A program made the position numbers and the translations under genes. Shown one piece after another: positions 253 to 63,190 of a stretch of 64,000 nucleotides of DNA. The first letter of the stretch is position 1, and every line of letters begins with the position of its first letter. The stretch comes from Negaprion brevirostris (Eukaryota): assembly GCA_030324005.1 (NCBI GenBank), contig JARDVH010000106.1, positions 36,925,403 through 36,989,402 on the forward strand. Direction: 5' to 3'. Under the pieces are notes generated by a model. It did no database searches and was not told the DNA's origin. It worked only from the letters and a program-made list of their open reading frames with translations.

Positions 253-998
253 CGAGGGATATTGTGAGCCGAGTCAAAAGAGAAAAAGGAAGCATTTGTC
301 AAAGCTGGCAGGCTGGGAACACACGAAGCACATGTGGAATACGAGAAAAGTAGAAAGAAACTTAAGCAAGGAGTAAGGAGAGTTAAAAGTGGTCACGAAA
401 AAGCACTGGCCAGCAGATTTACAGAAAATCCCAAGGCTTTTTATACATATGTAAAGAGCAAGAGGGTAACTAGGGAGAGGGTTGGCCCACTCAACGGCAA
501 GGGACAGAAACTGTGCATAGAGCCAGAGAAATGGGCAAGGTATTAAATGAGAACATTGCATCAGTATTCACCAAACAGAAGGGTGTGGTGGATGATGAGT
601 CTGGGAAAGGGTATGTAGATAGTTTGAATCATGTTGAGATCAAAAAGGTGGTATTGGGGTTCTTGAGAAACATTAGTGTCCCCAGGGCCTGATGGGATAT
701 ACCCAGAATAGTGAGAGAGGCAAGGGAGGAATTTGCTGGGGCTTTGAGAGAAATCTTTGTACCTTCACTGGCAATAGGGCAGGTCCCAGAGGATTGGAGA
801 ATAGCCAATGTTGTTCCTTTGTTTAAGGAGGGTAGCAAGAATAATCCAGGTAATTACAGGCCAGTGAGCCTTACATCAGTGGTAGGGAAATTGTTGGAGA
901 GGATTCTTCAAGACAGGATTTACTCCCAGTTGGAAATAACTGAATGTATTAGTGAGCGGCAACATAGTTATGTGAAGGGGAGGTTGTGCCTCACTTAA
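253..998 (+). mobile_element. CR1-clade LINE (HER1-like) ORF2 fragment: linker plus RT N-terminus
   Basis: ORFs 334-546 (ENPKAFYTYVKSKR) and 711-998 (VPEDWRIANVVPLFKEG..PGNYRPVSLTSVVGKLLE); frameshifted. Confidence 0.95.
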
Positions 999-11776: not shown

Positions 11777-11836
11777 TTTTCATCCCAATGAGTTCTGGAA
11801 CTCAGGTTTTCATCCCAATGAGTTCTGGAACTCAGG
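11777..11836 (+). repeat. Perfect 30-bp tandem duplication
   Basis: ttttcatcccaatgagttctggaactcagg occurs twice in tandem. Confidence 0.95.
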
Positions 11837-13324: not shown

Positions 13325-13908
13325 GTATTGGGAGTCTGTGTCCGATGCGCACACAAGCTGGCTATAGCCGCCTGTGGGAGACACACCGGCAGCAGTGGCA
13401 CTGCCAGAGCAGCACACTGCAACCACCCCAGACCTGGATTACTCAGCGACAGTGCCGGCTCACGAGTTTCAACCGGCACATTTGTTCCTTGTTTTGGAAT
13501 GAAAATAAGATGTTTTTGTTCCTTAAGAAAACCACCAACAATATGTGTGTGGTCTTCCCCCCCCCCCCAACCCTCTTTTGCTCGCTTATTTTTCTTTTTT
13601 TTTGTGTTGTTTAATAGCGGTTTCTTTTAGAGTCAGCAGCTGCCAGAAGTGACATCCANNNNNNNNNNNNNNNNNNNNNNNNNNNNNNNNNNNNNNNNNN
13701 NNNNNNNNNNNNNNNNNNNNNNNNNNNNNNNNNNNNNNNNNNNNNNNNNNNNNNNNNNAGAGTCAGCAGCTGCCAGAAGTGACATCCAGTAGCAGGATTT
13801 TGGTTTAAAACTTTTTTTTTAAAAGCCAGTTTAACGCCGGGGACTTCCAGCCATAAGGAAATGCTGGTGAAAGAATGCCTGACCGTAAAGATGACTTAAT
13901 CAGACTGG
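13325..13908 (+). ncRNA. Candidate first exon of the pri-miR-222/221 host gene (MIR222HG-like)
   Basis: Start inferred ~30 nt after TATA; ends at the consensus donor CTGG|GTGAGT; only short ORFs. Contains a 100-N gap with duplicated flanks. Confidence 0.5.
13839..13848 (+). promoter_or_regulatory. NF-kB consensus site
   Basis: GGGGACTTCC fits GGGRNNYYCC. Confidence 0.35.
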
Positions 13909-19598: not shown

Positions 19599-20317
19599 CA
19601 ATTCTTGCTACTCTGAATAAATGATTCAAACCTACAAAGCAGTGGATGCCATATGCATAGCCCAAAGTGCCACTAGTCTGAGGTGCTGGATTGGCTTCAC
19701 ATTTAAGGTTCAGAAATGTAAGGCAAATAACAAATTGATTCACTTTTTTGTTTTCTCCAACTTTTTAATGTCAGTGACGAAATTCAGAAAATTTTATGAT
19801 ACTATAATGCCAGATCCCTTGCATTGTTGCTTCATAATAGTTACTGATGTGCAGAAACACTATAATTGTAGTACCTGATTCCACGCACCCCCCACCCCCC
19901 CCAAGTAAGTGGGTGCTTTTCTACCTTTGCAACCGCAATTAGATATAATGTGACCAAATATTTTCTCTCGTAGCATCTATTACTAGTATTGATCTCTAGA
20001 CTGGCACTCGAACCTGGGTTTTCACCTATTGGTCATTGGAGGGAAAATTTGGCCCATGACTCAACTTGTACATCAGAAAATTCTCCCTTCCCTTGAGTTG
20101 TTGCCTAACTATATGACAACACTTTCACTATTTTGGTAACTTTTCTCAGTCATTCGACTTCCTAGTATGAATCATTAATATGTCATTTCCGTACATTTCT
20201 GAACACAAATGTGAAGCCAACCTTGCACAATGCACTGATGAGACTCTTGGGCCATGTATATGGCATCCACTGCTTTTTTTTGTGGTTTGAATCATCTATT
20301 CCAAACAGCAAGAATTG
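19599..20317. repeat. Degenerate long inverted repeat (foldback/MITE-like)
   Basis: 19599-19742 is an imperfect reverse complement of 20168-20317 (gcagtggatgccatat / atatggcatccactgc; ttggcttcacattt / aaatgtgaagccaa; gttcagaaatgta / tacatttctgaac). Confidence 0.85.
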
Positions 20318-21479: not shown

Positions 21480-23080
21480 TATTCATATAGTGCTTTCAAT
21501 ATAAAACACCCCAAGGCACAGGAGTGTTTTNNNNNNNNNNNNNNNNNNNNNNNNNNNNNNNNNNNNNNNNNNNNNNNNNNNNNNNNNNNNNNNNNNNNNN
21601 NNNNNNNNNNNNNNNNNNNNNNNNNNNNNNAACACCCCAAGGCACAGGAGTGTTTTGATTAAACTTTGACACCATGACACAACATGACATTGGGTCAGGT
21701 GCTTGGCCAAAGAGGTAGGTTTTAGTACTGCCTTAAAGAGGCAGAGATTTATGGAGAAATTCTACACTGGGGGCTTAGGCAGCTGAAGGCAAAGCTGTCA
21801 GTTGTGGCACAGTTAAAATTGGGGAGTCTCGTAAAGACAGAAATAGGTGCGTGCAGAGATGGGAGGAATGAGGCTGCGGAGGGAATTAGAAACTCGTTTT
21901 CAAATTTGAGGCACTGTTTAACTGGGTACACGCCACTGATCATTTTGATGAGTAAGTTAGGGTGCTGACAGCAAGGTTTTGATGGCCTTGTGTTTTACAG
22001 AGGGTAGAATGTGGAATGTCAGCCAGGAATAATAGGTCCAGAATTATCAAAGGCTTGGATGAGGATTTCTGCAGCAGATGCTGAAGTAGGGCAGGGTCAG
22101 CTGATGCTGCAGGGACTGAAATAGGTAGTTTTAGTGATGTTATAAATTTGTGTTTGGAAATTCATCTTGGTCAAATATATGTCCAAGATTGCAAGCAGTC
22201 TCATTCAGTTTTATAATTGTCACAGAGAGGGAGAGACTAAGGAACAGTGTTGTAACAGGAATAATCATTTCAGACTTCCCAATATTTAATTGGAGGAAGG
22301 TTCTGCTCTTTCAACATTGGATATATAACAAATGGTCTGTTGCATAGCAACTTTGGAGGAGCCGATGGATATGTTAAAGCACAGTTGGATATCAGTGTTG
22401 TCAGCACGTATGCAATGAGCAACACCATCAACTAGCAAGGTAACAGGAAGAGATGCTCCATGATCAATAAGTTGGTGGGAATGGATCGAGGGGACAGGTT
22501 GGTAGATTTTATGGACAAAGTGAGCTAGAAAAGGGGTGGGAGGGTGAATTTTCAGCCATAAAGGTGAAGATTTGGCTACTGGAATGGGGTCAGGCAGCTG
22601 AACTGCAGGGGATTGTTAGTTGTGAGAAGAGATCTGATGTTGTCTTTGCTGTTGGGAGTAATCCTGGAATGGTGTATGGGTTGAGAAGAATGTGTGGTCC
22701 CATATAGTGCTTAATGTGGTCCAGTCCAATTAGGTGATGAATAGCTCAACTCATTGAGCAATGACTCCATTCCCGTCTGTAATGGTGGACCTGATGAAGC
22801 AAAGGTTGGGGCCAAACCAGGAGAAATGACAAGGGACAAGGTCATCAAAAGTGGAAGCTACGGAATGGTTGAGTAAACTTGCTGTAAAATTATCGAGATG
22901 GTGAATTGTAAGGCTATAAAGGGCTTGGAAACAGAGTTTGAGTGGGGAGTGCTCCTAGAAATTAATTTGGATATGGGTGCTGAGGGATACAGAAATGTGG
23001 TTGGAGATAGATGTGAAGTCTGAGGCCATGTTAGGTGACAAGGGGTGGCTGTGAAAATAGAACTTGTACTGGAAGAGAGG
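21480..23080 (-). mobile_element. Degenerate L2-clade LINE
   Basis: Reverse-complement L2-type 3' end (atatagtgcttt..ccaagg..ggccaaagaggtaggtttta..ggcagctgaaggca) followed by decayed RT/EN-like sequence. Confidence 0.65.
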
Positions 23081-23516: not shown

Positions 23517-23645
23517 TGAAACCCACACAGACACCCAAGAGAATGTGCAGACTCCACGTAGACAGTTACCCAATGCCAGAATTGAACCTGAGTCCTTGCC
23601 ACTGTAAGGTAGCAGTGCTAACCATTGTGCCACAGTGCTGCCCAT
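23517..23645 (-). mobile_element. HE1-type SINE, 5' half
   Basis: gaatgtgcagactccac..attgaacctg..agcagtgctaaccattgtgcc is the reverse complement of the tRNA head plus V domain. Confidence 0.85.
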
Positions 23646-25394
23646 TAACCTGAAAATTTTCTAGGTCTGGTCAGATCTAATGGTTTGCAGTAGTAGTTAG
23701 TAATTGAAACGTTAAGCTGATGATGTTGCAAAAGTGTAAAAGCTCATAATTTTAACTTTTCTAGGTCATTAACTGTAAACCTGCCTCTGTAACAGTACCA
23801 TGAATCTAACCTTCTTTAGGTTTGAAAAGACAGTAGAACAAAATCCATTAAAGCTAGGTACAGGAGATAATAGCAATGGTCCCAGTTTTAATCACAGTAC
23901 AACTTCCCATCTAAAAGTTGGTTTTAAAGCCTTTTTTTTTGTGGGGGGGTGGGGGGAATGGGGGTGGGGAGGTGAGAGTGGGGATTAAGCTGCTTGTAGA
24001 AAATGAATCACTGCAATGTTAGTTTATCTGACTAAACAAAGAATTCCTAATGAGTGAATAAAAGGTAAATATTCCTATAGGGCTCTTGGATTTCTGTTGG
24101 AGAAGCTCCTAACTTTATGTTTAGTCAAAGCCAGAATATCAGAAATTGAAAAAATTCCAGACACAAGACCTTATTTGTACAGACAGTATTGATAATTAAA
24201 TTGTAAATGAGTTCATTTGCTGTTGTGATCTTCACCCTGCGCTTAAATTAATTCACACGAGTGTATCTTGTTTAGCCATCTGAGAATGTTCAAACTTGCC
24301 TTTTAAAATTCAGCTGCTGGTTCCATCTCTACAGACTGGGAAAAGATAACTAGCCTTTTAAGAAGTCTGGCAAAAGGATAAATGAACGGGAACTTAGTTA
24401 GGATGTGAGTTATTCCCACAGTGAATCATTGTAACTTGGTTCTCATTCTCAAAATAAATCTGGATGAATCAGCTTGTGTTTGAATCAGTCAAATTGGAAC
24501 CAGAATTGAACCTGGTCCAATTGGAGGAAACCATCTATCCTAGAATCTATATAAATTTCAGTATATTGGAGCCTAACCTGCCCCATAATTCAGGGGCATA
24601 CGGTGGCAGCAACAATTATTTGATTGAGTATCTGGGCTAACTGTTGCAGTTGCAGTCAGTCAGTAATGACATTTTAAAATGTTTCTCACTGAATAGTCAA
24701 AAGATTCTTGCAGTGGGGCAGTTGTGTGTACCCAGTGTTTGTACGGTATGTAATCATGGTGGAATGAATCAGCACAAATAATTAGGGACTTTTGGACATC
24801 TTGGCATTTGTGTTGTAACTTCAGCACAAGTAAAGTGACTATTCAGTATTTGAGTATTATGAATGATTCAGTTCCTGTTGGCGTGATCCTGCTGACAACA
24901 ATTTGGTTAGGAGAACTCAAAAAAATGTTTTAGAATGTGGATGTGGTGAGCCTAGTCATCTTCGAGGTATTTCAGAGGAAACCCACATCAACTGTAAAAA
25001 TGAACTTTGAACTCCTGGACTCCAATAATAGTTCCAGCACCACTTGATGGGCATGCTTAATAACTTCTTTCAAAATGTACCCACCATTGAAAATGTTTTA
25101 AACGTGGTATCTGTACAAGAGAGCCGTTAGTTCTAAAAAGATAATGAGTATGCTCCTGGGATCATTTGGCTTTATTTAGGAGTTATACTTGCTAAGGGGT
25201 GCTGTTGCAGATTAGTGCCTGATGGCTCCAAATCACCACATGGTGAGCTTTTGATGCCAGCAGTGAGTTTAAATTGGACCCCAGAGCAAAAAAGATTGGG
25301 ATCTAAGATTAGGATTATTCTGGTTATATTATTTCCCATTTTCTATAAGCCAATTCCAAAATAGCATTAGCAAAAACTATTAAGTTTGCTGATT

Positions 25395-25680
25395 CATAGA
25401 ATCCCTGCTGTGCAGAGAGAGGCCATTTGGCCCATCGAGTCCCCACATATTAACACTGCTGATCCTAACCTAAATCCCTTGGGACAGTAAGGGATAATTT
25501 AGCACGGTCTTGCATAACTTAAATTGCAAATCTTTGCATTGCGGGAGGAAACCGCGGCATCCAGAGGGAACCCGCACAGACACGGAGTGTGCGAACTCCA
25601 CAGAGATGGTCACCCAAGGCAGGAATTGAACTTGGATCCCTGGCATTGTGAGGCAGCAGTGCTAACAGCTGTGCTGCCCA
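25395..25680 (-). mobile_element. HE1-type SINE, near full length
   Basis: Runs from the HER1 tail (catagaatccc..gaggccatttggcccatcgagt) through the core to the tRNA head. Confidence 0.9.
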
Positions 25681-28682: not shown

Positions 28683-28800
28683 GTAGAGTTTTACAGCACA
28701 GAAAGAGGCATTTCAGCTCATTGTGCCCACGTCGCCCATCAAGCCCCTGTCTATTCTAATCCCATTTCCCAGCACTTGGCCCATAATGCTATGGCATTAT
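28683..28800 (-). mobile_element. HER1/CR1 3' tail
   Basis: acagcacagaaagaggcatttcagctcattgtg..cccatttcccagcacttggcccata. Confidence 0.7.
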
Positions 28801-28869
28801 GGAAAAGTGAAGGGGGAGCATCCACCGTCTAGAGTTTCATGACTAGATTGACAATGGCATGTGTTTTGG

Positions 28870-29620
28870 AGTGGAGAAATGGTAAAAATGATACCGCAAA
28901 GATGGACCCACAGCTCCCTGACTGCCACGATGAGCTTTGAGTGGAAGGCCATTCCCTTACGGATTTATAAAAGTTCATTCTCAAAATCCTTGAAAGCTCA
29001 CCAGGCCAAGATCTGCCTTGAGGGAAAAGTTTGAACCATGCAATGGACTGGCATTGCAGAGTTACTTTTTCAGAGACCATAGTGTCAAGAGCTGCTTTGT
29101 GTTCAGTTATGGCTGACATTCTTCTCTTGAATGCTTGAATACTTAACCATGTTGCATAAGCAAGTAAGCCAGTGTTTATAACCACATTAGATCCTCCTCA
29201 AAACGACCAACGGAAATTATGCAGCTATATTTCAGAGAAGACAGTTTATTTGGCTGTTCTATTAGAGCTTTGGTACATCAGAGAGTTCTTGTGCCAATCC
29301 TAATGCCAATACTATAAGTGACAAAGGATCAACCTTGTGGTGTTCAAATACATGGCAGCTGGGGACTATGGGAATAGAATAGATAATAAATAACAGGACT
29401 CACTTGGATGGCGAAAGATTGTGGCACTATTGTGGGTATTGCTTATCTGGTGACCCGAAGTCAGTTTCCATTCGGAATATCTATAGTGAGAAGAAGTTGT
29501 ATAGTACAATAACAATCTACACATCCAGCGGTGGGGTGATGGTGGAAAAGATGTATTGAAATCCAGAATCCAAAGAACGGAGCACTGATCACTGGAAGGA
29601 ATTGTAGATATTACTGGATC
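28870..29620 (+). pseudogene. Highly decayed Ty3/Gypsy integrase-like relic
   Basis: Frame-shifted peptides DCHDEL*VEG / ILKIL..AHQAK / QWTGIAE / ETIVSRAALC, then NTISDK..DYG..IINNR..GVMVEKM, follow the order of the Gypsy HHCC zinc finger and integrase core. Confidence 0.4.
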
Positions 29621-30501
29621 AAAGAATTTCAACATGAAATGCTGGGGACCCCTGTGTTTGTCTTGTGCCAATAGGACTTGGGAGGACTACTGAACACGCA
29701 CAACTGAGGTTTGAACAGGGCTTGTGTTAAAGTTAGATGACCAGTAAAAAAAGATTGAGAGAGTAATGGAGGTGACAACATTGACTGGGGAAAGCCTGCA
29801 GCCACAGGCTCTTCAATTTGTTTACTTGAAAATAAACTTGCATTAAAGCACTCTACTATTTAGAGGATCTCCTTTAAGATGTCTAAAATCCTAGAAACTG
29901 GGTTATATAAAATTCAAAAGGTAGGAAATAAAAACAGTTTTTAATCATTATTTGAAAGGAACATTTTATAATCGATGTCCACTGCATGTGCAAATAAGAA
30001 TCCCATGTTTTCACAAATTTGTGTGCATTCTGCACTGCCATTATTTTCAATCTTAAATGCAAGAGTAAACTTGACAGATCTGACCTATCCAATGGCAGTC
30101 TAACAGCTACTGTAGTAAACTGTAGATTGTAAATTTGGATGCATCTTGTCTGTTTTGCTGTTTGTGTTCAAACTTTGAGATTTACATTGGTTTTACTTCT
30201 TCTCACTACAGATACTCCGAATGGAAACTGACTTCACCAGCTAAGCAATACCCACAATAGTGCCACGATCTTTGGCCATCCAAGTGAGTCCTGTTATTTA
30301 TTATCTATTCTATTCCCATAGTCCCCAGCTGCCATGCATTTGAACACCACAAGGTTGACTCTTTGTCATTTATAGTATTGGTATTAGGATTGGCACAAGA
30401 ACTTTCTGATGTACCAAAGCTCTGATAGAACAGCCAAATAAGCTCTCTGAAACATAGCTGCATAATTTCCATTGGTAGTTTTGAGGAGAATCTAATGTGG
30501 T
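29181..30501. repeat. Long inverted duplication: arms 29181-29497 and 30195-30501, spacer ~700 bp
   Basis: The arms align as reverse complements with scattered substitutions and small indels; 29351-29412 and 30275-30336 are perfectly complementary over 62 bp. Confidence 0.95.
30212..30283 (+). other. Candidate 72-nt non-coding cassette exon of the host transcript
   Basis: Acceptor ttttacttcttctcactacag| and donor CAA|GTGAGT; stop codons in all three frames. Confidence 0.4.
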
Positions 30502-30784
30502 CACTAGAATTTGAAATGCTCTTTTTTACACCTTTTTTTACAAAAATCCTTTTTTTTTTAAATTGCTTTTTTTAAAATCAAAAGATTTTTTTCCCCTCAA
30601 CTTGTTCCTTCTCTTCAGCTGCTCAACCGAGGGGTCAGGCTATCCATCAAGTACGTCCCAGCTGTGACCTACATCCTCTGATTCTTCCAGAAAACATTGC
30701 CACTTCTGCCAGAAGTGATTTTTTTTTTTTTAATAAAAAAACACCTTTTTTCGACAAATACAAATAATTGCTGGTAAATGCACT

Positions 30785-30885
30785 GCGCCAATTCAAAAAG
30801 GCAGCTCCCCATCTCCTGCGGGCAGAGTGGGGGGGCAATTGGGGATGGGCAATATTTGCTGATCTAGCCCACATGCCTTGAACTA
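30785..30885 (+). mobile_element. Family B LINE/SINE 3' tail
   Basis: ttcaaaaaggcagctc..gggcaattggggatgggcaata..gcccacatgcc. Confidence 0.7.
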
Positions 30886-31654
30886 TTTTTAAATAAATGC
30901 TGTTTCCTCTAAAATATTTTGTGGACATTCTAGTGGAGATCAGGAGTGCCCAAGATTTCTAATTGAATTTTTCAGAGTATATGTGTTTGTTACTTTCCAC
31001 AACAAACCACAAAGAACATTATCCTTTTATTTTCCTTTCCCTTTCTGTCAAAGATCTTGGTTTCCTGCTGAGGTATTAGATACTGAGATGTGTTTGGCTG
31101 TCATGCTCAAGTTTTCATCTGTGGTGCCAAGAAGCTATTCACCAGCTGACTCACTAACGCTCCCTGCCTGTTTTCACCCAATGTCCACTCCCGTGGGTGG
31201 GATTCTCCAATCTAGTGCATGCCCTGCTGCAAGTGAGAATGGAGAAATTGGCATTCCGGCCAACATTCCATTCACTTTCAGCGGCACAGGAACTGTGAGC
31301 CAGGATTTTTGGCACGCTTCCTGAACTGCAGTTAGATGTTGGTGCCTTCTTTGTTTTTTTTCTTTTCCATTTCCTCCCGCCACAGTCATCAAAACCCTTC
31401 AAATGAACTCCACACAGACCAAAGTTAAATCTCAAACCTTGTTTCGCTATATAGTTCAGTTACTTATTACATAACCTTGCAATGTGAGAAAGAAAGTAGC
31501 ATTTAGCCTTCACTGCTGCTGGTAGTACAGTTGTTAATCGAATTGTAGCCATTAAATATTGACTGAACACATGAAAAATATTGAATGGATTGTGATCGCG
31601 TGCTTTCCCCCCCCTCCTGGGAAGATGATGATGGTGAATTAAATACAGCTGGAT

Positions 31655-35065: not shown

Positions 35066-35574
35066 CAATTATATTTCCTCCTTTTTTTTATTTAAATAAA
35101 AAGTTTTTAAACTTGAAAGATAATCATTCCAACAACTAATTTTATCCCCTGATAAATTGCCTATTTTCTTCCAATTATCAATCGCTTTCATTCTGTTCCA
35201 CAGAGAAGTTTGAGAGCTGAAACAAAGTTTGCATTAAGGTTTCAAAGCTGGAAGTTAAATAATTCAAACCAAAATCTTTCATCAGTCATGTAAATGTTAC
35301 CTTTTTACCTTATTGCTGACTTGTCTAAGTAAAAGCAAGATTGCTTTTTATTAAAAGGGATAAATTGTGTTGTAAGCATAAAAAATACACAACTATTTTA
35401 TCAGCTTTTGAAGATTTAGAAATGATGAATTGGCTTTTACATGTAGCACACAACTTTACAGTTACACCTAAGAGAATAACGAGCTGACAGGTATTACGTT
35501 GTTTATTTTAACCTGCAACATTTAGTTGGATATGTAGAATAAACAGAACATATTTATCTCTACCTATCACTGCA

Positions 35575-35838
35575 CACTGGTACAGTGGTTAGCATTGCTG
35601 CCTCACAACGCCGGTGACCCGGGTTGTATTTCTGGCTTGGGTTGCTGTCTGTGTGGCATTTGCACATTCTCCCCGTGTCTGCGTGGATTTCCTCCCACAG
35701 TCCAAAGATGTGTGGATTAAGTGCATTGGCCGTGTTAAATTGTCCCTCTGTGCCCAAACAGGCACAGGAGTGTGGCAGCTAGGGGATTTTCATATTTCAG
35801 TGTTAATGTAAGTCTATTTGTAACCAACAAATAAACTT
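35575..35838 (+). mobile_element. HE1-headed SINE with an alternative 3' tail
   Basis: tRNA head plus V domain, then the tail aggggattttc..gtgttaatgtaagtctatttgtaaccaacaaataaacttt. Confidence 0.85.
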
Positions 35839-36939: not shown

Positions 36940-37028
36940 AGCGTCTATCACTTGCTCAGTAGTCAGTGTAGATTCTGTCCCTATCCAGCAGCTACATCTG
37001 GCTACTGGGTCTCTGATGGTATCGCGCT
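36940..37028 (+). ncRNA. mir-222: microRNA precursor mir-222 (5p ~36953-36975; mature 3p 36990-37013)
   Basis: AGCTACATCTGGCTACTGGGTCTC is canonical miR-222-3p; 5p arm TGCTCAGTAGTCAGTGTAGATTC; lower stem agcg/cgct and ctatca/tgatgg; apical UGU and a CNNC ~16 nt downstream. Confidence 0.98.
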
Positions 37029-37662
37029 CCTCTTCTGCTGGCTCCTTCTCTTTTATAATTAGAGGTTTCCTTTCCAGGGTGGGTCAACCAGAGAATCCCG
37101 TGTTTGGATAGGATCCTGCAGTTTGTTATTAATGGAGACGTTTAGCTGCACCTCTGTAACCAATAAAATATTAGATTAGATCATCAATTGCATGTTATCT
37201 GCAATTTTTAAGGTGGTGGTTTTGTAATATCTGTGGTATAGGGGAATAGACAATATGTTGGGTTTNNNNNNNNNNNNNNNNNNNNNNNNNNNNNNNNNNC
37301 AGTATCATTTTTGTTGTTTCCTTGGTTGATCTCAAACTCTCTTCCCATTTTTATGTAAAAGATCCTTGCATCGGTCATTCAGTGAACATGACCAGTGTAG
37401 GTTCATCTCTTCTGGATTGTTAGTTATCTATACTGTGTGAGGCACACTTTAATTTGTCACATTGGGAACCACCTGTTGTGATGCGAGAGTCACTGTGGGC
37501 ATCTGCACGGGAAACTGTTGTGCTTTATTCAGTTAGCACTGAGACTGCCAAATTTCTCAACCATAAAGAAGCCCAGGCAACACGTTATTAAATCCCAATT
37601 TCTTATTTCTCATCACACTTGATTTCAAAATTCAGCGAACAGTTTCAAATGTTGCACTATCT

Positions 37663-38350
37663 TTAGAGTCGTAGTCATATAGCACAGAAAAGGCCCATCA
37701 AGTCTGCATTGAAGTAACTATCACTAAAGGTGGTACCTTCCCAGGCAGTGTATTCCAGATTCTCACCATCCCCTGAGTGGAAAAAAAAACTCAAATCCCC
37801 TGTGAATCTCCAGCCCCTCACCCCTCAACCAAGGAGAACAGCTGCTTCCGATTCACCTGTCCATACCCCTCATAATCTTATATACCTCAATCATGTCCCC
37901 CCTCAGTCTTCCCTGCTTTAAAGAAAACAATCCAAACCCATCTTCTCCCTCGTAGCTCAAATGCTCCATCCTGGTGAACCACCTCTGTACTCCCTCTATT
38001 GCTATCACATCCTTCCTATAGTGAGGTGACCAGAACTGCACACAGTACTGCACCCGGGGACTAACCAATATTCTGTACAACTCCAACATTACCTCCTTGC
38101 TCTTAGACATAATGCCACAACTAGCAAAAGCCTGTGTCCCATATGCCTTGTTAACTATCTTATTCATGGGCTGTGCTGCCTTCAGGGATCTGTGAATAAG
38201 TACCCCAAGACACACCTGTTCCTGAGCTTCCCACTGTCCTGCCATTCATTAAATACTACCACATCTTGTTTCTTCTTCCAAAGTGCATCACATCACACTT
38301 ATCAGGTTAAATACCATCTGCCACTACTCTGCCCATCTGACCAACCCATC
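37663..38350 (-). mobile_element. HER1/CR1 LINE 3' portion
   Basis: ORF 37853-38245 contains YCVQFWSPHYRKD..LRGDMIEVYKIMRGMDR. Confidence 0.92.
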
Positions 38351-38632
38351 TATAATCTTTCTCTTTTCTAAAGTGAGCTTTAACATCTGCCCTGGAGAGC
38401 CTGAGCAGGTAATATCCTGTTTGCAATTCTTCACCTTGCAGGCGTATTCCTTTGAGTACCATTTACTTTTGAGGCCTAGAATGCTACAATATTGATCCAA
38501 GGTTCTGGTTATAAAATTGACTTCTAGTTTCTGTACTTGACCAGCTCTGTGCACAACCATCATCTTTTCCTACCTGGATTTTTTTTTTTCTTTTCAGCAA
38601 TATTTTCTCCAGTAATATTTGAGTTCTGTACT

Positions 38633-38928
38633 ACTGGCACAGTGGCTAGCACTGATGGCTCACAGCATCAGGGATCCGGGTTTTATTCCAGTCTCGGGTG
38701 ACTGTCTGTGCGGAGTTTGCACGTTTTCCCATGTCTGTGTGGGTTTCTTCAGGTACTCCGGTTTATTCCCACAGTCCAAAGATATGCACGTTAGGTTGAT
38801 TGGACATTCTAAATTGTCTCTGTGTCGAGGAATAGCAGGGTAAATACGCGGGGTTAAGGTGATCGAGCCTGGCTTGAATTGTGGTATGGGCTGAATGGTC
38901 TCCTTCTGCACTGCAGGGATTCTGATTC
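38633..38928 (+). mobile_element. HE1-type SINE, full length
   Basis: Head ggcacagtggctagcactg, core cccacagtccaaagat, tail gggctgaatggtctccttctgcactg. Confidence 0.92.
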
Positions 38929-39948
38929 TAAGTGACTGTATGTAAACTTGAGTTCCTCGCGCTTTTTCCTACTAATTCTCAAACGTGGTTATTTGCCGTT
39001 TAGTAAGGATATTGTGAGATATTTCCACAGCTAACCAGGGATAAAGTTTGCTAATTATCACGTGCAATGTTTCCTACAATTGAAAATTGAATTAGCAGAT
39101 GGTCAGTATGTCCAGTGTTGTCTGTGCAGTCCACAGAAAAACTTACAAAGATCACTAACAGCCCCTAGTGGCAAAGATCAAGTGCTGCATCATTCACATG
39201 ATCTATTGGCAATTCACTATTTAATACTTTGAATTTCTCAGTTTGTTCCTACATGTCTTTTTCTATTAACAGTTTTATAAACAGCGATGTTTTCATTTAT
39301 CCAGAAACGCTACTTCAGGAACAGCCAGACCACAAGATCTAGATTCAGGCTGGTGAAGGGTAAATTTAACACTGACATCAGGAGAACTCATCATTCTTGA
39401 ACCAAATTTCTAGGAAAAGTAGTGGGAGACAAAAGCCTGAGTCATTCCAAAGCCCTGTTGGAAATATATAGTTTATCTTTTTTTGGATGGCCAATCTCCC
39501 TCTGTGTATTCATCCGTTAACTGGTTAGTGAAGTCTTCCAACTAGCCACTAATTTTCACACAAACCTATTTCAAAGATTTTTATTTGCGTGTTTGTGATT
39601 CACAGTGAATTCAGTCTGCAAATGCCCAATGGACAGGTGCATAAAGACTTGACGGGGGTAAAAAACGCTACCTACAGGCACGGTGATTCATTGAATGTCA
39701 TAATTTGTTTTGGTCCCATTTCCAAGCAATACTTGTATTACATCAACTAGATGTAATACAATCTGTTGCAATTACAGAGACAAACTAAAGCATTAAAGTC
39801 CCAGTACCATTTCCTTTTGGAGTTGCAAAAAGGGTGCATCCACAAATTCTGATGCCTTATAATATCCAATGGAGAATCATTCCAGATTAGATGAGAAATG
39901 AGCCCACTTGGCGCAGGCTGAATACAATCCAAGTTGATTACATTTATA

Positions 39949-40042
39949 TTTCAGGTTTGGGCCTGAACCTGGCATACAATGTAGAATTCTGTGTTTGTAT
40001 ACCAACAGCTACATTGTCTGCTGGGTTTCGGGCTACCTGGAA
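39949..40042 (+). ncRNA. mir-221: microRNA precursor mir-221 (5p 39967-39988; mature 3p 40007-40029)
   Basis: AGCTACATTGTCTGCTGGGTTTC is canonical miR-221-3p; 5p arm ACCTGGCATACAATGTAGAATT; basal stem ttcaggt/acctggaa; apical UGUG. Confidence 0.98.
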
Positions 40043-43789: not shown

Positions 43790-45265
43790 CTTCCTCCAGA
43801 GATCCCCAACATCACAGCTGCCCATCTTCAGCTAGTCCATGTGATATCAAGAAATGGTTGGAGGCACTGGATACTGCAAAAGGTGCTGACAATATTTCAG
43901 CAATAGTACTGGAGACTTGTGCTTCCGCACTGGCCGTGCCCCTAGCCAAGCTTTTCCAATGCAACTCTGGCATCTACCCGGCAATGTGGAAAATTGCCTA
44001 GGTCTTTCCTGTATACAAAAAAACAGGACAAATCCAACCAGGCTAATTACCGCCCCATCGATCTACTCTCAATCATTGACGGAGGGGTCATCAACAACAC
44101 TATCAAGCTCAGCAACAACCTGCTCACTGGTGCTCAGAAAGGATTCTATCACAGTATCACACAGCTCCTGGTCTCATTACAGCCATGGTTCAAGCATAGG
44201 CAAAAGAGATGAACTCCAGAGGTGAGGTGAGGGTGACTGCTCTTGACATCAAGGCAGCATTTGACAGTGTGGCATCAAGGAGTCCTAGCAAAACTGGAGT
44301 CAATGGGAATCAGGAGAGGGAAAATCTCTGATTTTTGGAGTTATACATAGCACAAAGGAAGATAGCTGTGGTTGTTCAAGGTCAGTTATCTCAATTCCAG
44401 AATTCCTCAGTAGTTCCTTAGGCCATCCATGTCCAGCTACTTCATCAATGACCTTCCTTCCATTATAAGGTCAGATGTGGGAATGTTTGCTGATGATTGC
44501 AGAATGGTCACCACTGTTCATAACTCCTCAGATACTGAAGCAGTCTATGTCGAAATGCAGCAAGACCTGGACAATATCCAGACTTGGGCTGACAAATGGC
44601 AAATAACATCCGCGCCACCCAAGTGCCAGACAATGAACAGCTCCAACAAGAGAGAATCTAACCATCTCTCCATCAATGGCATCCCCACTGCTGTTTCTCC
44701 CACTATCAGCATGGGGAGCTGGCGATGAGGCTAGCCCTGTGAATACTGTGGTTACAAGAGGAGGTCAGAGGCTAGGAATCTTGCGGCAAGTAACTTACCT
44801 CCTGACTGCCCAAAGCTGGCCCACCATCTATAGGGCACAAGTCAGGGGTGTGATGGAGTACACCCTGCTTGCCTGGATGCAGATCCAACAACACTCAAGA
44901 GGTTTGACACTAGGACAAAGCAGCCCGATTAACTGGCAATCCATCCAGCTTATCAACCGTACACCCTCTCCCTCACTGGTGCACAGGGGCAGCAGTGTGT
45001 ACCATCTATAAGGCAACTTGCCATGACTTCTACCACATAGAAGGTCAAGAAAAGCAGACACAAAGCACCCCCCACCCCGTATCACCATTCCTTCACTGTG
45101 TCTGGGTCAGCATACCGGACCTCCCTTCCTGAGGGTGTCCTGAGTGTGTCCTGAGTGTGTCCACACTAGTTCAAGGGGGGCGGGGGGGCTTGCCACCACT
45201 TTCTCAGCACTGACAAGTGGGTAATAACTACTGACACCATGAGCCCCATGAACCAATAATAAAAA
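43790..45265 (+). mobile_element. CR1-like LINE family B, RT domain plus 3' UTR
   Basis: KKQDKSNQANYRPIDLLSII, LDIKAAFD, FINDLPSII..MFADD, IYRAQVRGVMEY; frameshifted. Confidence 0.92.
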
Positions 45266-46137: not shown

Positions 46138-46467
46138 AAACATAGAAACCCCACAGTACAGAAAGAGGCCATTCGGCCCATCGAGTCTGCACCAACCACA
46201 ATCCCACCCAGGCCCCATCTCCACACTCCCACACATTTACCCACTAATCCACGCATCTCAGGACACCAAGGACAATTTTAGCCAGGCCAATCAACCTAAC
46301 CCGCAAGTTTTTGGACTGTGGGAGGAAACTGGAGCACCCAAAGGAAACCCATGCAGACACAAGAAGAATGTGCAAACTCCACACAGACAGTGACCCAAGC
46401 CAGGAATTGAACCCAGGTCCTTGGAGCTATGCAGGAGCAGTGCTAACCACTGTGCTACCATGCCACC
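46138..46467 (-). mobile_element. HE1-type SINE, full length
   Basis: catagaaaccccacagtacagaaagaggccattcggccc through agtgctaaccactgtgctaccatgcc. Confidence 0.93.
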
Positions 46468-47407
46468 CAGTAGCACAATGTTCTCGGTTAAAAGGGGTTG
46501 GACATGAATCCTGTAGGTTTGGCTTAGGATAACTTCTCATTTATTCTAAGAAACTCTAGGGATGTTAAGATTCTTATGTGTGTACTCTGAGCATTCTAGA
46601 GAAAAAAAATTACTCCACAGCATCAAAGTGCTGTTGATGTGTTCAAAAACATCAACTCTTTCAAAGTAAAAATAAATCAGCTTTATTTATTCCATCCATT
46701 CCAATGTCTTGCCAAAGAAAGTTTCTCAAAACAAATGAGCCTAGCTAGCACAATATTAACTCCTCTGATGTCTCTGTATAAATCGATTTACAACACTTGA
46801 AAGATCAGGTTGCCAAAAAAAGTGAGCACAAGAATTTTTAATTTTTTTCTGAAGTATTGGGTAACTGTAGTTCAAAAACAAAACATCTTTTCATTTTGAA
46901 TAGATACTTGTCTTAGCCAAGTTACAACTATTAACCAGTGTGCAGCAGACAACCTTAAAGTTGATCCATCATCAAATCTAAGCTTGGAAAAACACAGTAA
47001 TCTTCCCTACTTATAGCAATGGAATGGTTTGATTATGCCTCTGAGCACATAACATGGAAATAAGCCGGTAGGGGGTGTGTTTTTGAATATAATAATGTGA
47101 TTCCAATGCATCATTGTGTTTTTTGGGATATAATGCAAACACTTTCATGACTGCACTTCTTTTTCTAATAGAATTGATCATTTCACAGTTACGTTTAGCA
47201 ATGGTATTGCTGGAATGCAACATTTGCATCCAGTGACAATGCTTGGCTCAAGTTTGTCAAGCCTTAATTGCAATAGAGTGCACTTCATCACCAACTCCCA
47301 CGTACCATTTTCACATTTCCATTTAGCACATGCTGTCCAATACAGTCAGAGAAAAATGTTGAGTTTTGGGTTTAAACTGGATTATCAAACTTTGTCCAAA
47401 CTACTTA

Positions 47408-48800: not shown

Positions 48801-49767
48801 CTCCTGACTCTTGTTCTTGTACTGCCACAGCAAAGATGCTATACTTTTTTTTATTTTTAATTTAATTTTTTTTTAATGTATTCCTTTCTCAGCGTTACAA
48901 AACCAATGTGCGGCGTGTACTAGCCGAGCTCTTAATTCACCTCCTTGCTTCCTCCAAGAACCAATTCAAATTCAAATTGAATCCAATTCACACTCCCCAC
49001 AAGAGAGACATTCTAAATCCAGGCTGACAGGAACAGGCATTACTCCTGATCTCAGGCTTAATCTTGTTATAAGACTAAGTGCACTTGCTGGCTTTGCTAG
49101 GTCATAAATGAAATAAATGGGGCCTACATTACTTTGTAAGTCACCACAGACAACAGGGACTGCAGCCATTCAAGAAAGCTCACCACCCCCTTCTTAAGGG
49201 CAAGTAGAGATGGACAATAAATGCTGTCCTGGCCAGCAATACCCATNNNNNNNNNNNNNNNNNNNNNNNNNNNNNNNNNNNNNNNNNNNNNNNNNNNNNN
49301 NNNNNNNNNNNNNNNNNNNNNNNNNNNNNNNNNNNNNNNNNNNNNNATAAATGCTGTCCTGGCCAGCAATACCCATATCCCATAAATAAATTTTATAAAC
49401 TCCTAAAGTTCTACTTGCTACTGAATAAGTGATAACAAAATATGCTGGAAGTGTCACAATGCCACATTTTTCAAAATTCAACCTTTTGAAAAGTCTCTGA
49501 GGAAGAGAATCAATGGGTAATAAAGTCAATATCCTGCTCATGTGTATAATGACCCCACTAAACATTGTCCAAATAACAACAAAGGAGCACCAAACAAGGC
49601 ACATNNNNNNNNNNTGTCTGTTCAAGAGTTGTCATCGACAGGACTATGTTGGGGAGGCTAATGGTGTCAGTTTTTATCTGATGAAGTTTCTGTGATTTTT
49701 TTCTGCCTTAAATGAACAATATTAATGCTGTTTTTGGCCCAAGTCCCACTTTCAATCCATTACTGCA

Positions 49768-53215: not shown

Positions 53216-53497
53216 CTCACAGCGCTGGGGAAACAGGTTCAAATCCCAGCTTGGGTCACTGTCTGTGTGAAGTCTGCACATTCTCCCTGAATCTGTGTGG
53301 ATTTCCTCCAGGCTCTCTGGTTTCCTCCCACAGTCCAAAGATGTGCGGGTTAGGTGGATTGGCCATGTTAAATTCTCCCTCCGTGTCAGAGGGACTAGCC
53401 AGGGATAGGGTTATGGGGATAAGGCCTGGGTGGAATTGTGATGGGTGCAGACTTTGTGGGCTGAATGATATCCTTCGGGACTGTAGGATTGTATGAT
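53216..53497 (+). mobile_element. HE1-type SINE
   Basis: B box ggttcaaatccc, core cctcccacagtccaaagatgtgcgggttaggtggattggccatg, HER1 tail. Confidence 0.92.
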
Positions 53498-62911: not shown

Positions 62912-63190
62912 TGGTGGCACAGTGGTTAGCATTGCTCCCTCACAGCACCAGGGGCCTGGGTTCAATTCCCACATTCTGCACATTCTCCCCATGTCTGCAT
63001 GGGTTTCCTCTGAGTGCTCTAGTTTCCTCCCACAGTCCAAAAGGCACACTGGTTAGGTGCATTGACCATGCTAAATTCTCCCTCAGTGTACCCAAACAGG
63101 CAGCAGAATGTGACTACTAGAGGATTTTCACAGTAACTTCATTGCAGTGTTAATGTAAGCCTACTTGTGACACCAATAAATAAACTTAAA
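62912..63190 (+). mobile_element. HE1-headed SINE with an alternative 3' tail
   Basis: Same structure as 35575-35838; tail ggattttcacagtaacttcattgcagtgttaatgtaagcctacttgtgacaccaataaataaac. Confidence 0.88.

What the first reader, a model, noticed from the sequence alone, without database searches (positions are those of the whole stretch)
29181..30501. A ~310-bp inverted duplication would sequester a cassette exon and both its splice sites in dsRNA
Seen: arm B (30195-30501) contains a strong acceptor, a 72-nt exon with stops in all frames, and a GTGAGT donor. Arm A, 700 bp upstream, is its reverse complement, with a perfect 62-bp duplex spanning the donor. The arms are far more similar to each other than the underlying Gypsy-like relic is to any intact element, so the duplication is recent or kept homogenised. 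Inferred: in the pri-miRNA this hairpin could act as a splicing switch, an ADAR substrate (several A-C mismatches) or a Drosha/Dicer substrate 6.5 kb upstream of mir-222.
Basis: partly seen in the sequence, partly recalled or inferred. Interest (0 to 1): 0.7.

Follow-up and report, generated by a model that had tools for sequence, protein, structure and literature searches.

The report
Old local inverted duplication near mir-222
A real 310-base stretch was copied backwards next to itself long ago and is slowly decaying; it would fold into double-stranded RNA if transcribed, but nothing shows that it acts as a splicing switch.

Summary
The inverted repeat is real: 29181-29497 and 30195-30501, 290 of 317 columns alike, 697-nt spacer, perfect 62-bp stretch over the GTGAGT donor. 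Public DNA contigs show it also in two related organisms 2.2-2.6% diverged, so it is neither a misassembly nor recent, and it is not a high-copy transposon end. In this organism both arms have mutated independently: 10-15 changes in 564 arm bases against 7-9 in 695 spacer bases. Mismatches are 7 G-U, 7 A-C and 3 other, and the duplex is equally stable on both strands, so pairing shows no sign of selection. The splice motifs also lie on arm A's minus strand, so they came with the copy. The Gypsy label could not be confirmed. No RNA data were available. Best reading (0.72): a neutral local inverted duplication, probably a template switch, and at most a passive ADAR substrate if the pri-miRNA reads through. 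The proposed mechanism is already known from inverted Alus.

The parts
29181..29497 (+). Arm A of the inverted duplication (probably the source copy; the direction of copying is inferred, not shown)
   Evidence: inner part bridged to the spacer in contigs of organisms A and C
29498..30194 (.). 697-nt single-copy spacer (loop); used as the neutral yardstick; no Pfam family
30195..30501 (+). Arm B, reverse complement of arm A; lacks 5 nt at 30233 that organisms B and C have
30275..30336 (+). Perfect 62-bp match to 29351-29412; covers the last 9 nt of the pseudo-exon and the donor
30212..30283 (+). 72-nt pseudo-exon (AG before, GTGAGT after); use not shown; 77 nt in relatives B and C
29404..29480 (-). 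The same acceptor/donor pair on the minus strand of arm A (77 nt)
36944..37024 (+). mir-221-family hairpin (mir-222 by recall), 6.4 kb downstream of arm B
39957..40040 (+). mir-221-family hairpin (mir-221 by recall)

Best explanation
A one-off local inverted duplication in non-coding DNA, now decaying neutrally. SHOWN: two single-locus arms in fixed inverted layout, present in three related organisms, each arm mutating on its own in this organism. INFERRED: during replication or break repair the polymerase switched to the opposite strand about 700 nt back, copied about 310 nt and returned. That placed splice-like motifs, which were antisense in arm A, into the sense strand of the miRNA locus. 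[quoted passage not shown]
For:: record 1 of run X1 (922 nt) and record 24 of X5 (842 nt) join inner arm B, spacer and inner arm A on opposite strands; X2 records 16, 17 and 18 tile arm B with both flanks. At the 11 listed core sites where this organism's arms differ, the B and C contigs carry a mosaic of arm A and arm B letters (adjacent sites 30359/30360 go opposite ways) and agree with each other at 10 of 11, so both arms here have their own changes. Rate on this lineage: 10-15 of 564 arm bases (1.8-2.7%) against 7-9 of 695 spacer bases (1.0-1.3%), Fisher p 0.03-0.50, never slower. 7 G-U, 7 A-C, 3 other. Duplex -518.5 (+) and -517.6 (-) kcal/mol. Neither arm folds alone (z 0.07 and 1.26). 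No Rfam match at the arms. One contig per listed arm variant against about 100 at neighbouring repeats. No target-site duplication above 3-4 nt.
Against: A motif pair this good lies wholly inside a random 307-nt stretch at only 39-183 of 5693 positions on the + strand (0.7-3.2%; a post hoc definition that includes this case), and arm B starts just 17 nt before the segment. AG and GT show no listed change in B or C (63 variant rows were hidden). The arm cores collapse into one contig in B and C, so they are more alike there: about 50-74% of 31-mers shared in C by a rough depth estimate, against 15% here. One site (30258) seems changed in both arms of C (indirect; chance 0.03-0.10). The repeat has persisted across three lineages. 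The empty pre-duplication site was not seen, so the template-switch origin is untested. The samples are small: weak selection cannot be excluded.
Confidence: 0.72

Rival explanations
1. The arms undergo concerted evolution (arm-to-arm gene conversion or template switching) in some lineages, with or without selection for a long duplex, and this lapsed in the window's organism.
For: Collapse of 30214/30234-30476 into one contig at about 1.5x flank depth in B (2.98 against 2) and C (19 against 10.9-12.7). Apparent shared change at 30258 in both arms of C, read from 3-letter clips at both ends of record 24 and a fifth unlisted difference in record 25. 13 core differences here against 4.9-6.8 expected had the arms been identical at the split (P 0.002-0.02). 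Arm homogenisation by template switching is described in yeast (PMC8604942, abstract seen).
Against: Contig assembly can merge bubbles and hide differences (recalled), so collapse overstates identity. The tool warns that depth is no copy number. If C's arms differ at only about four core sites (rough estimate), that fits neutral expectation (P 0.19-0.47 for 4 or fewer). The 30258 letter is not displayed. Some differences may predate the split, which removes the excess in A.
Confidence: 0.12
2. [quoted passage not shown]
For: Strong predicted masking of tract, exon and donor. Splice dinucleotides not listed as changed in B and C. Motif containment 0.7-3.2% by chance. Human pri-miR-221/222 can start 23.3 kb upstream (PMC5852960 passages) or be 28.2 kb long (PMC3733744 passages). 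Pairing reduces access to an Alu exon in NARF (PMC1852406 section 8).
Against: No constraint on pairing or sequence. Segment length differs between organisms. The motifs are inherited from the minus strand of arm A. By position, the adenosines in the 7 A-C mismatches lie outside the splice signals, 5 of them in arm A. Stops are irrelevant in a non-coding host; none of 83 long ORFs in the window matches a cellular gene family. Human cells also use promoters 120-500 bp upstream of the miRNAs, which would skip the site. A stronger-looking acceptor lies outside the duplex at 30618.
Confidence: 0.07
3. Two separate insertions of one low-copy or extinct repeat in opposite orientation.
For: Inverted repeat pairs are common in this window (32 pairs), and the underlying sequence was not identified.
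Against: All other pairs over 100 bp are 69-79% alike and belong to multi-copy families. No third copy at 80% likeness appears among the listed pieces in runs X1, X2 or X5 (tables cut). No target-site duplication.
Confidence: 0.05
4. Terminal inverted repeats of a DNA transposon or MITE.
For: The layout (two long inverted arms round a spacer) resembles one.
Against: Single-locus depth (X1 2.5-7.5 over arm B against 536-2566 at repeats within 1 kb), no target-site duplication, no transposase family in the spacer.
Confidence: 0.03
5. Assembly artefact.
For: The window has 17 N-gaps, three flanked by exact 26-30-nt duplications. Run X1 lists no contig for outer arm B (30337-30593), so three private letters there are unconfirmed.
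Against: The arms differ at 17 sites and 2 indels. The junctions are bridged in contigs of organisms B and C from other studies.
Confidence: 0.01

Closest known systems
Intronic inverted Alu pairs (IRAlus) that pair, are edited and alter splicing: Lev-Maor 2008 (PMC2533698, abstract seen), NARF Alu exon (PMC1852406, section 8 read), review PMC11263572 (passages)
   Same: Two arms of about 300 nt in opposite orientation within 1 kb; one arm carries splice-like motifs on the strand antisense to the other; pairing would mask the motifs and attract ADAR.
   Different: The arms here are a single-locus duplication, not two insertions of a high-copy SINE. Both splice sites already exist, so editing need not create one as in NARF. 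The host would be non-coding. Transcription, editing and splicing are unshown.
Template-switch / locally templated inverted insertions (Walker 2021, PMC7954356, abstract seen; further papers seen only in the listing)
   Same: A nearby segment copied in reverse-complement orientation, no target-site duplication, T-rich tract beside the junction.
   Different: The event (about 310 nt, 700 nt away) is larger than the short-range events that abstract describes as mutation clusters. The empty site and junction microhomology could not be tested.
Non-repetitive inverted duplicates (Drosophila: 20,223 in intergenic DNA, 628 expressed; PMC3176832, abstract seen)
   Same: Single-locus inverted duplicates in non-coding DNA that can form hairpins.
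   Different: That paper argues for selection on the class as a whole; this vertebrate case shows no constraint. The 697-nt loop is long for a hairpin RNA gene (recalled).
Genome-wide hyper-editing of inverted repeats (PMC5625713, passages)
   Same: Long near-perfect dsRNA from inverted copies is the usual ADAR target; 200,171 unique sites in elephant shark brain.
   Different: Editing at this locus is untested; being edited would make it ordinary rather than special.

Membership tests
Local inverted duplication (template-switch type) | Reverse-complement copy of a nearby segment | tested here: met
Local inverted duplication (template-switch type) | Single locus, not a dispersed family | tested here: met
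   one contig per listed arm variant in three runs (tables cut, X5 82% read)
Local inverted duplication (template-switch type) | Empty site in an outgroup and microhomology at the junctions | tested here: inconclusive
   run X19 (5.4% diverged downstream) does not cover the spacer or arm; only 3-4-nt matches at the junctions
DNA transposon / MITE terminal inverted repeats | Many dispersed copies | tested here: not met
DNA transposon / MITE terminal inverted repeats | Target-site duplication | tested here: not met
   (best 3 nt around the whole unit); age could have eroded one
DNA transposon / MITE terminal inverted repeats | Transposase between the arms or a related autonomous element | tested here: not met
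   no Pfam family in 6 of 6 frames; an autonomous partner elsewhere was not testable
Structure-regulated cassette exon (IRAlu-like) | Duplex predicted to cover the splice signals | tested here: met
Structure-regulated cassette exon (IRAlu-like) | Exon used in transcripts | not testable with these tools
   only DNA or unlabelled contig runs were offered
Structure-regulated cassette exon (IRAlu-like) | Selection for pairing (slow arms, G-U excess, compensatory changes) | tested here: not met
   one indirect shared change in organism C; low power
ADAR hyper-editing substrate | Long near-perfect intramolecular duplex | tested here: met
   (prediction)
ADAR hyper-editing substrate | A-to-G differences between RNA and DNA | not testable with these tools
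   no RNA run available
Drosha/Dicer miRNA precursor | Local stem of about 35 bp with a small loop (criterion recalled), or a match to a miRNA family | tested here: not met
   arms do not fold alone; loop 697 nt; no Rfam match
Drosha/Dicer miRNA precursor | 21-23-nt reads from the stem | not testable with these tools
   no small-RNA data
Ty3/Gypsy retroelement relic | Detectable homology to gag, protease, RT, RNase H or integrase | tested here: inconclusive
   all searches negative; no vertebrate Gypsy library was available, so a very decayed relic is not excluded

The most novel reading that the evidence does not exclude
[quoted passage not shown] The window's own lineage would be losing the switch.
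Probability: 0.06. Interest if true: 0.6.

Novelty: new member of a known kind. Interest (0 to 1): 0.2.

Why it matters
As read here it matters little: one more decaying inverted duplicate in vertebrate non-coding DNA. If the functional reading were true it would show an exon and its structural lock born in one mutation, without a SINE family, in the host transcript of a deeply conserved miRNA pair. Three related species with different arm identity would then form a natural series for testing how duplex decay changes exon use and editing.

Tried and rejected
Own-genome search: no genome is held for this window. RNA evidence: no RNA holder listed among 24 runs; this is no evidence either way. 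Run X19 (organism G) gave no cover of spacer or arm; uninformative. Identity of the underlying sequence: Pfam on 6 frames, 0 families; on 12 pieces, only DUF5463 twice below its cut-off; phmmer over 1.84 billion representatives, 0 hits (one frame); word-based searches, 0 of 426 and 0 of 1584 candidates (the other two frames). An integrase motif scan found 0 viral contigs and 120 metagenome loci. Of 88 integrase ORFs from them, 0 hit 28700-30600 by tblastn. 0 of 35 zinc-finger-bearing ones scored higher in the region than elsewhere in a frameshift-tolerant alignment. Their profile scored 14.6 bits against 15.2 +/- 1.7 for 100 shuffles. 56 longer ORFs gave mean z -0.14; the top z of 4.3 rests on 8 shuffles and ends at 29060, outside arm A, and was rejected. 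blastn against 120 loci: best E 0.24. My own by-eye reading as an integrase was therefore dropped. The language-model atlas gave no result, so that look-up is open. Earlier findings of this scan: none by place, sequence or words. Literature on this locus: nothing relevant among the 10 listed of 24 papers or the 15 listed of 508. Junction microhomology: only 3-4-nt matches, treated as chance. No supplements were read.

Full report
What is there. The window is non-coding vertebrate DNA: two mir-221-family hairpins at 36944-37024 and 39957-40040 on the + strand, dispersed repeats, and among 83 long ORFs only two weak reverse-transcriptase matches. The repeats look like shark SINEs; that label is recalled and comes from no call. 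The finding is a pair of inverted arms, 29181-29497 and 30195-30501, 697 nt apart, 290 of 317 columns alike with 17 substitutions and two 5-nt indels, E 1e-126, the strongest of 32 inverted pairs in the window. The region folds at -695.6 kcal/mol. With arm A the pyrimidine tract, segment and donor are predicted unpaired with probability 0.07, 0.04 and 0.00; without it 0.62, 0.46 and 0.43; the branch-point region does not change.

Is it real, and how old? I laid contigs of 4 of the 24 listed runs on 29500-31300. In run X1 (organism A, possibly the window's source) one 922-nt contig joins inner arm B, the spacer and inner arm A on opposite strands, with no other letters over 29500-30304. Run X5 (organism C, 20 differences in 758 nt) shows the same joint. 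Run X2 (organism B, 16 in 736 nt) tiles arm B with both flanks. So the layout is real and older than the split of three organisms 2.2-2.6% apart. Run X19 (organism G, 21 differences in 386 nt downstream) does not cover the site, which tells nothing. X1 lists no contig for outer arm B, so three private letters there rest on the window alone. Each listed arm variant is carried by one contig, against about 100 at repeats within 1 kb (depth 2.5-7.5 against 536-2566 in X1), there is no target-site duplication and no transposase: these are not the ends of a high-copy transposon.

Is pairing under selection? In B and C the arm core (30214 or 30234 to 30476) is one contig that forks at both ends, so both arms follow one path. 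At 11 listed core sites where this organism's arms differ, that contig carries the arm A letter at four sites, the arm B letter at six, and B and C disagree at one (30445). Adjacent sites 30359 and 30360 go opposite ways. Both arms of this organism therefore have their own changes. Allowing for differences hidden by contig merging, I count 10-15 changes in 564 arm bases on this lineage against 7-9 in 695 spacer bases (Fisher p 0.03-0.50); this count is my reading of tables in which 63 variant rows were hidden. The arms are not slower than the spacer. C differs from arm B's core at 5 of 243 and from the spacer at 17 of 695 (p 1.0). The mismatches on the + strand are 7 G-U, 7 A-C and 3 other, where selection for an RNA duplex should favour G-U, and the duplex is equally stable on either strand (-518.5, -517.6). 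The segment is 72 nt here and 77 nt in B and C.

The arms are more alike in C than here: roughly 50-74% of 31-mers shared by a depth estimate that the tool warns is rough, against 15%. One site, 30258, appears changed in both arms of C, read indirectly from clipped contig ends; two independent hits would give this with chance 0.03-0.10. That hints at arm-to-arm conversion, a DNA-level process that needs no function (described for short repeats in yeast, PMC8604942, abstract). An acceptor-donor pair this good occurs 4-16 times on the + strand of the window and fits wholly within a random 307-nt stretch at 39-183 of 5693 positions, so the containment is uncommon, though the definition was set after seeing the site. 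The same pair lies on the minus strand of arm A: the motifs came with the copied sequence and were not built afterwards.

The underlying sequence. I saw integrase-like words by eye, but ten searches gave no support. No vertebrate repeat library was on hand, so a very old retroelement relic is possible but unshown, and so is the direction of copying.

How it most likely works. Shown: a single-locus inverted copy, shared by three organisms, decaying in this one. Inferred: it arose by a template switch in replication or repair (such events are widespread in ape genomes at short range; PMC7954356, abstract). Inferred and conditional: if the pri-miRNA reads through, the arms pair, the cryptic exon stays hidden and ADAR edits the stem. 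Read-through is plausible but not certain: human transcripts start 23.3 kb upstream, or 120-500 bp upstream in other cells (PMC5852960, passages), and 5.6, 28.2 and 108.5 kb forms were proposed (PMC3733744, passages). Editing of such stems is routine, with 200,171 sites in elephant shark brain (PMC5625713, passages). A Drosha substrate is unlikely: the arms do not fold alone, the loop is 697 nt and Rfam finds nothing there.

Compared with what is known. It would work like an inverted Alu pair that masks an exon: pairing alters splicing of a neighbouring exon (PMC2533698, abstract) and reduces spliceosome access to the NARF Alu exon (PMC1852406, section 8); antisense repeats are a known source of splice sites (PMC11263572, passages). 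It is not a member of that class on present evidence, because exon use is untested and selection for pairing was tested and not met. It is a member of the plain class of single-locus inverted duplicates, of which 20,223 were counted in Drosophila intergenic DNA (PMC3176832, abstract). In human data, arms of short inverted repeats change slightly more slowly than controls (PMC7897504, passages); these arms do not show that.

Verdict. Concerted evolution in relatives 0.12, functional switch 0.07, other origins 0.09. New member of a known kind; interest 0.2.

Noticed in passing
window 30591-30656: A long pyrimidine tract ending in CAG at 30618, followed 32 nt later by GTACGT at 30651: a stronger-looking acceptor than the one in arm B, outside the duplex (my notebook entry gives these places 1 nt too high).
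   Followed up: no
window 19599-19739 and 20174-20317: A second close inverted pair, 146 bp, 77% alike, 435 nt apart.
   Followed up: no
window 13629-13788, 21505-21656, 49217-49376; 11777-11836: Exact 26-30-nt duplications on both sides of three N-gaps, and one exact 30-nt tandem pair: likely short-read scaffolding artefacts; 1624 N in 17 gaps.
   Followed up: partly
window 693-995 and 44414-44725 (+): Reverse-transcriptase fragments (Pfam RVT_1, E 2e-5 and 8e-5, below the curated cut-off), probably LINE relics.
   Followed up: no
window 30781-30902 and 31194-31300: Short pieces of high-copy repeats, with hundreds of contigs laid in all four runs.
   Followed up: no
window 23518-23666, 25516-25678, 35572-35838, 38633-38923, 46144-46488, 53216-53490, 62912-63187: Copies of one dispersed family in both orientations, about 69-83% alike; it resembles a shark tRNA-derived SINE by recall.
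   Followed up: no
window 30258: Both arms of organism C appear to share a letter that differs from both arms here; one candidate conversion event, read indirectly.
   Followed up: partly
window 30214-30476: Organism B's merged arm contig is 1 nt shorter than the window's stretch with 11 gap letters, implying a 6-nt loss besides the 5 extra nt; whether in one arm or both is unknown.
   Followed up: no
window 36944-40040: The two mir-221-family hairpins start 3.0 kb apart, with a SINE-like copy between them.
   Followed up: no
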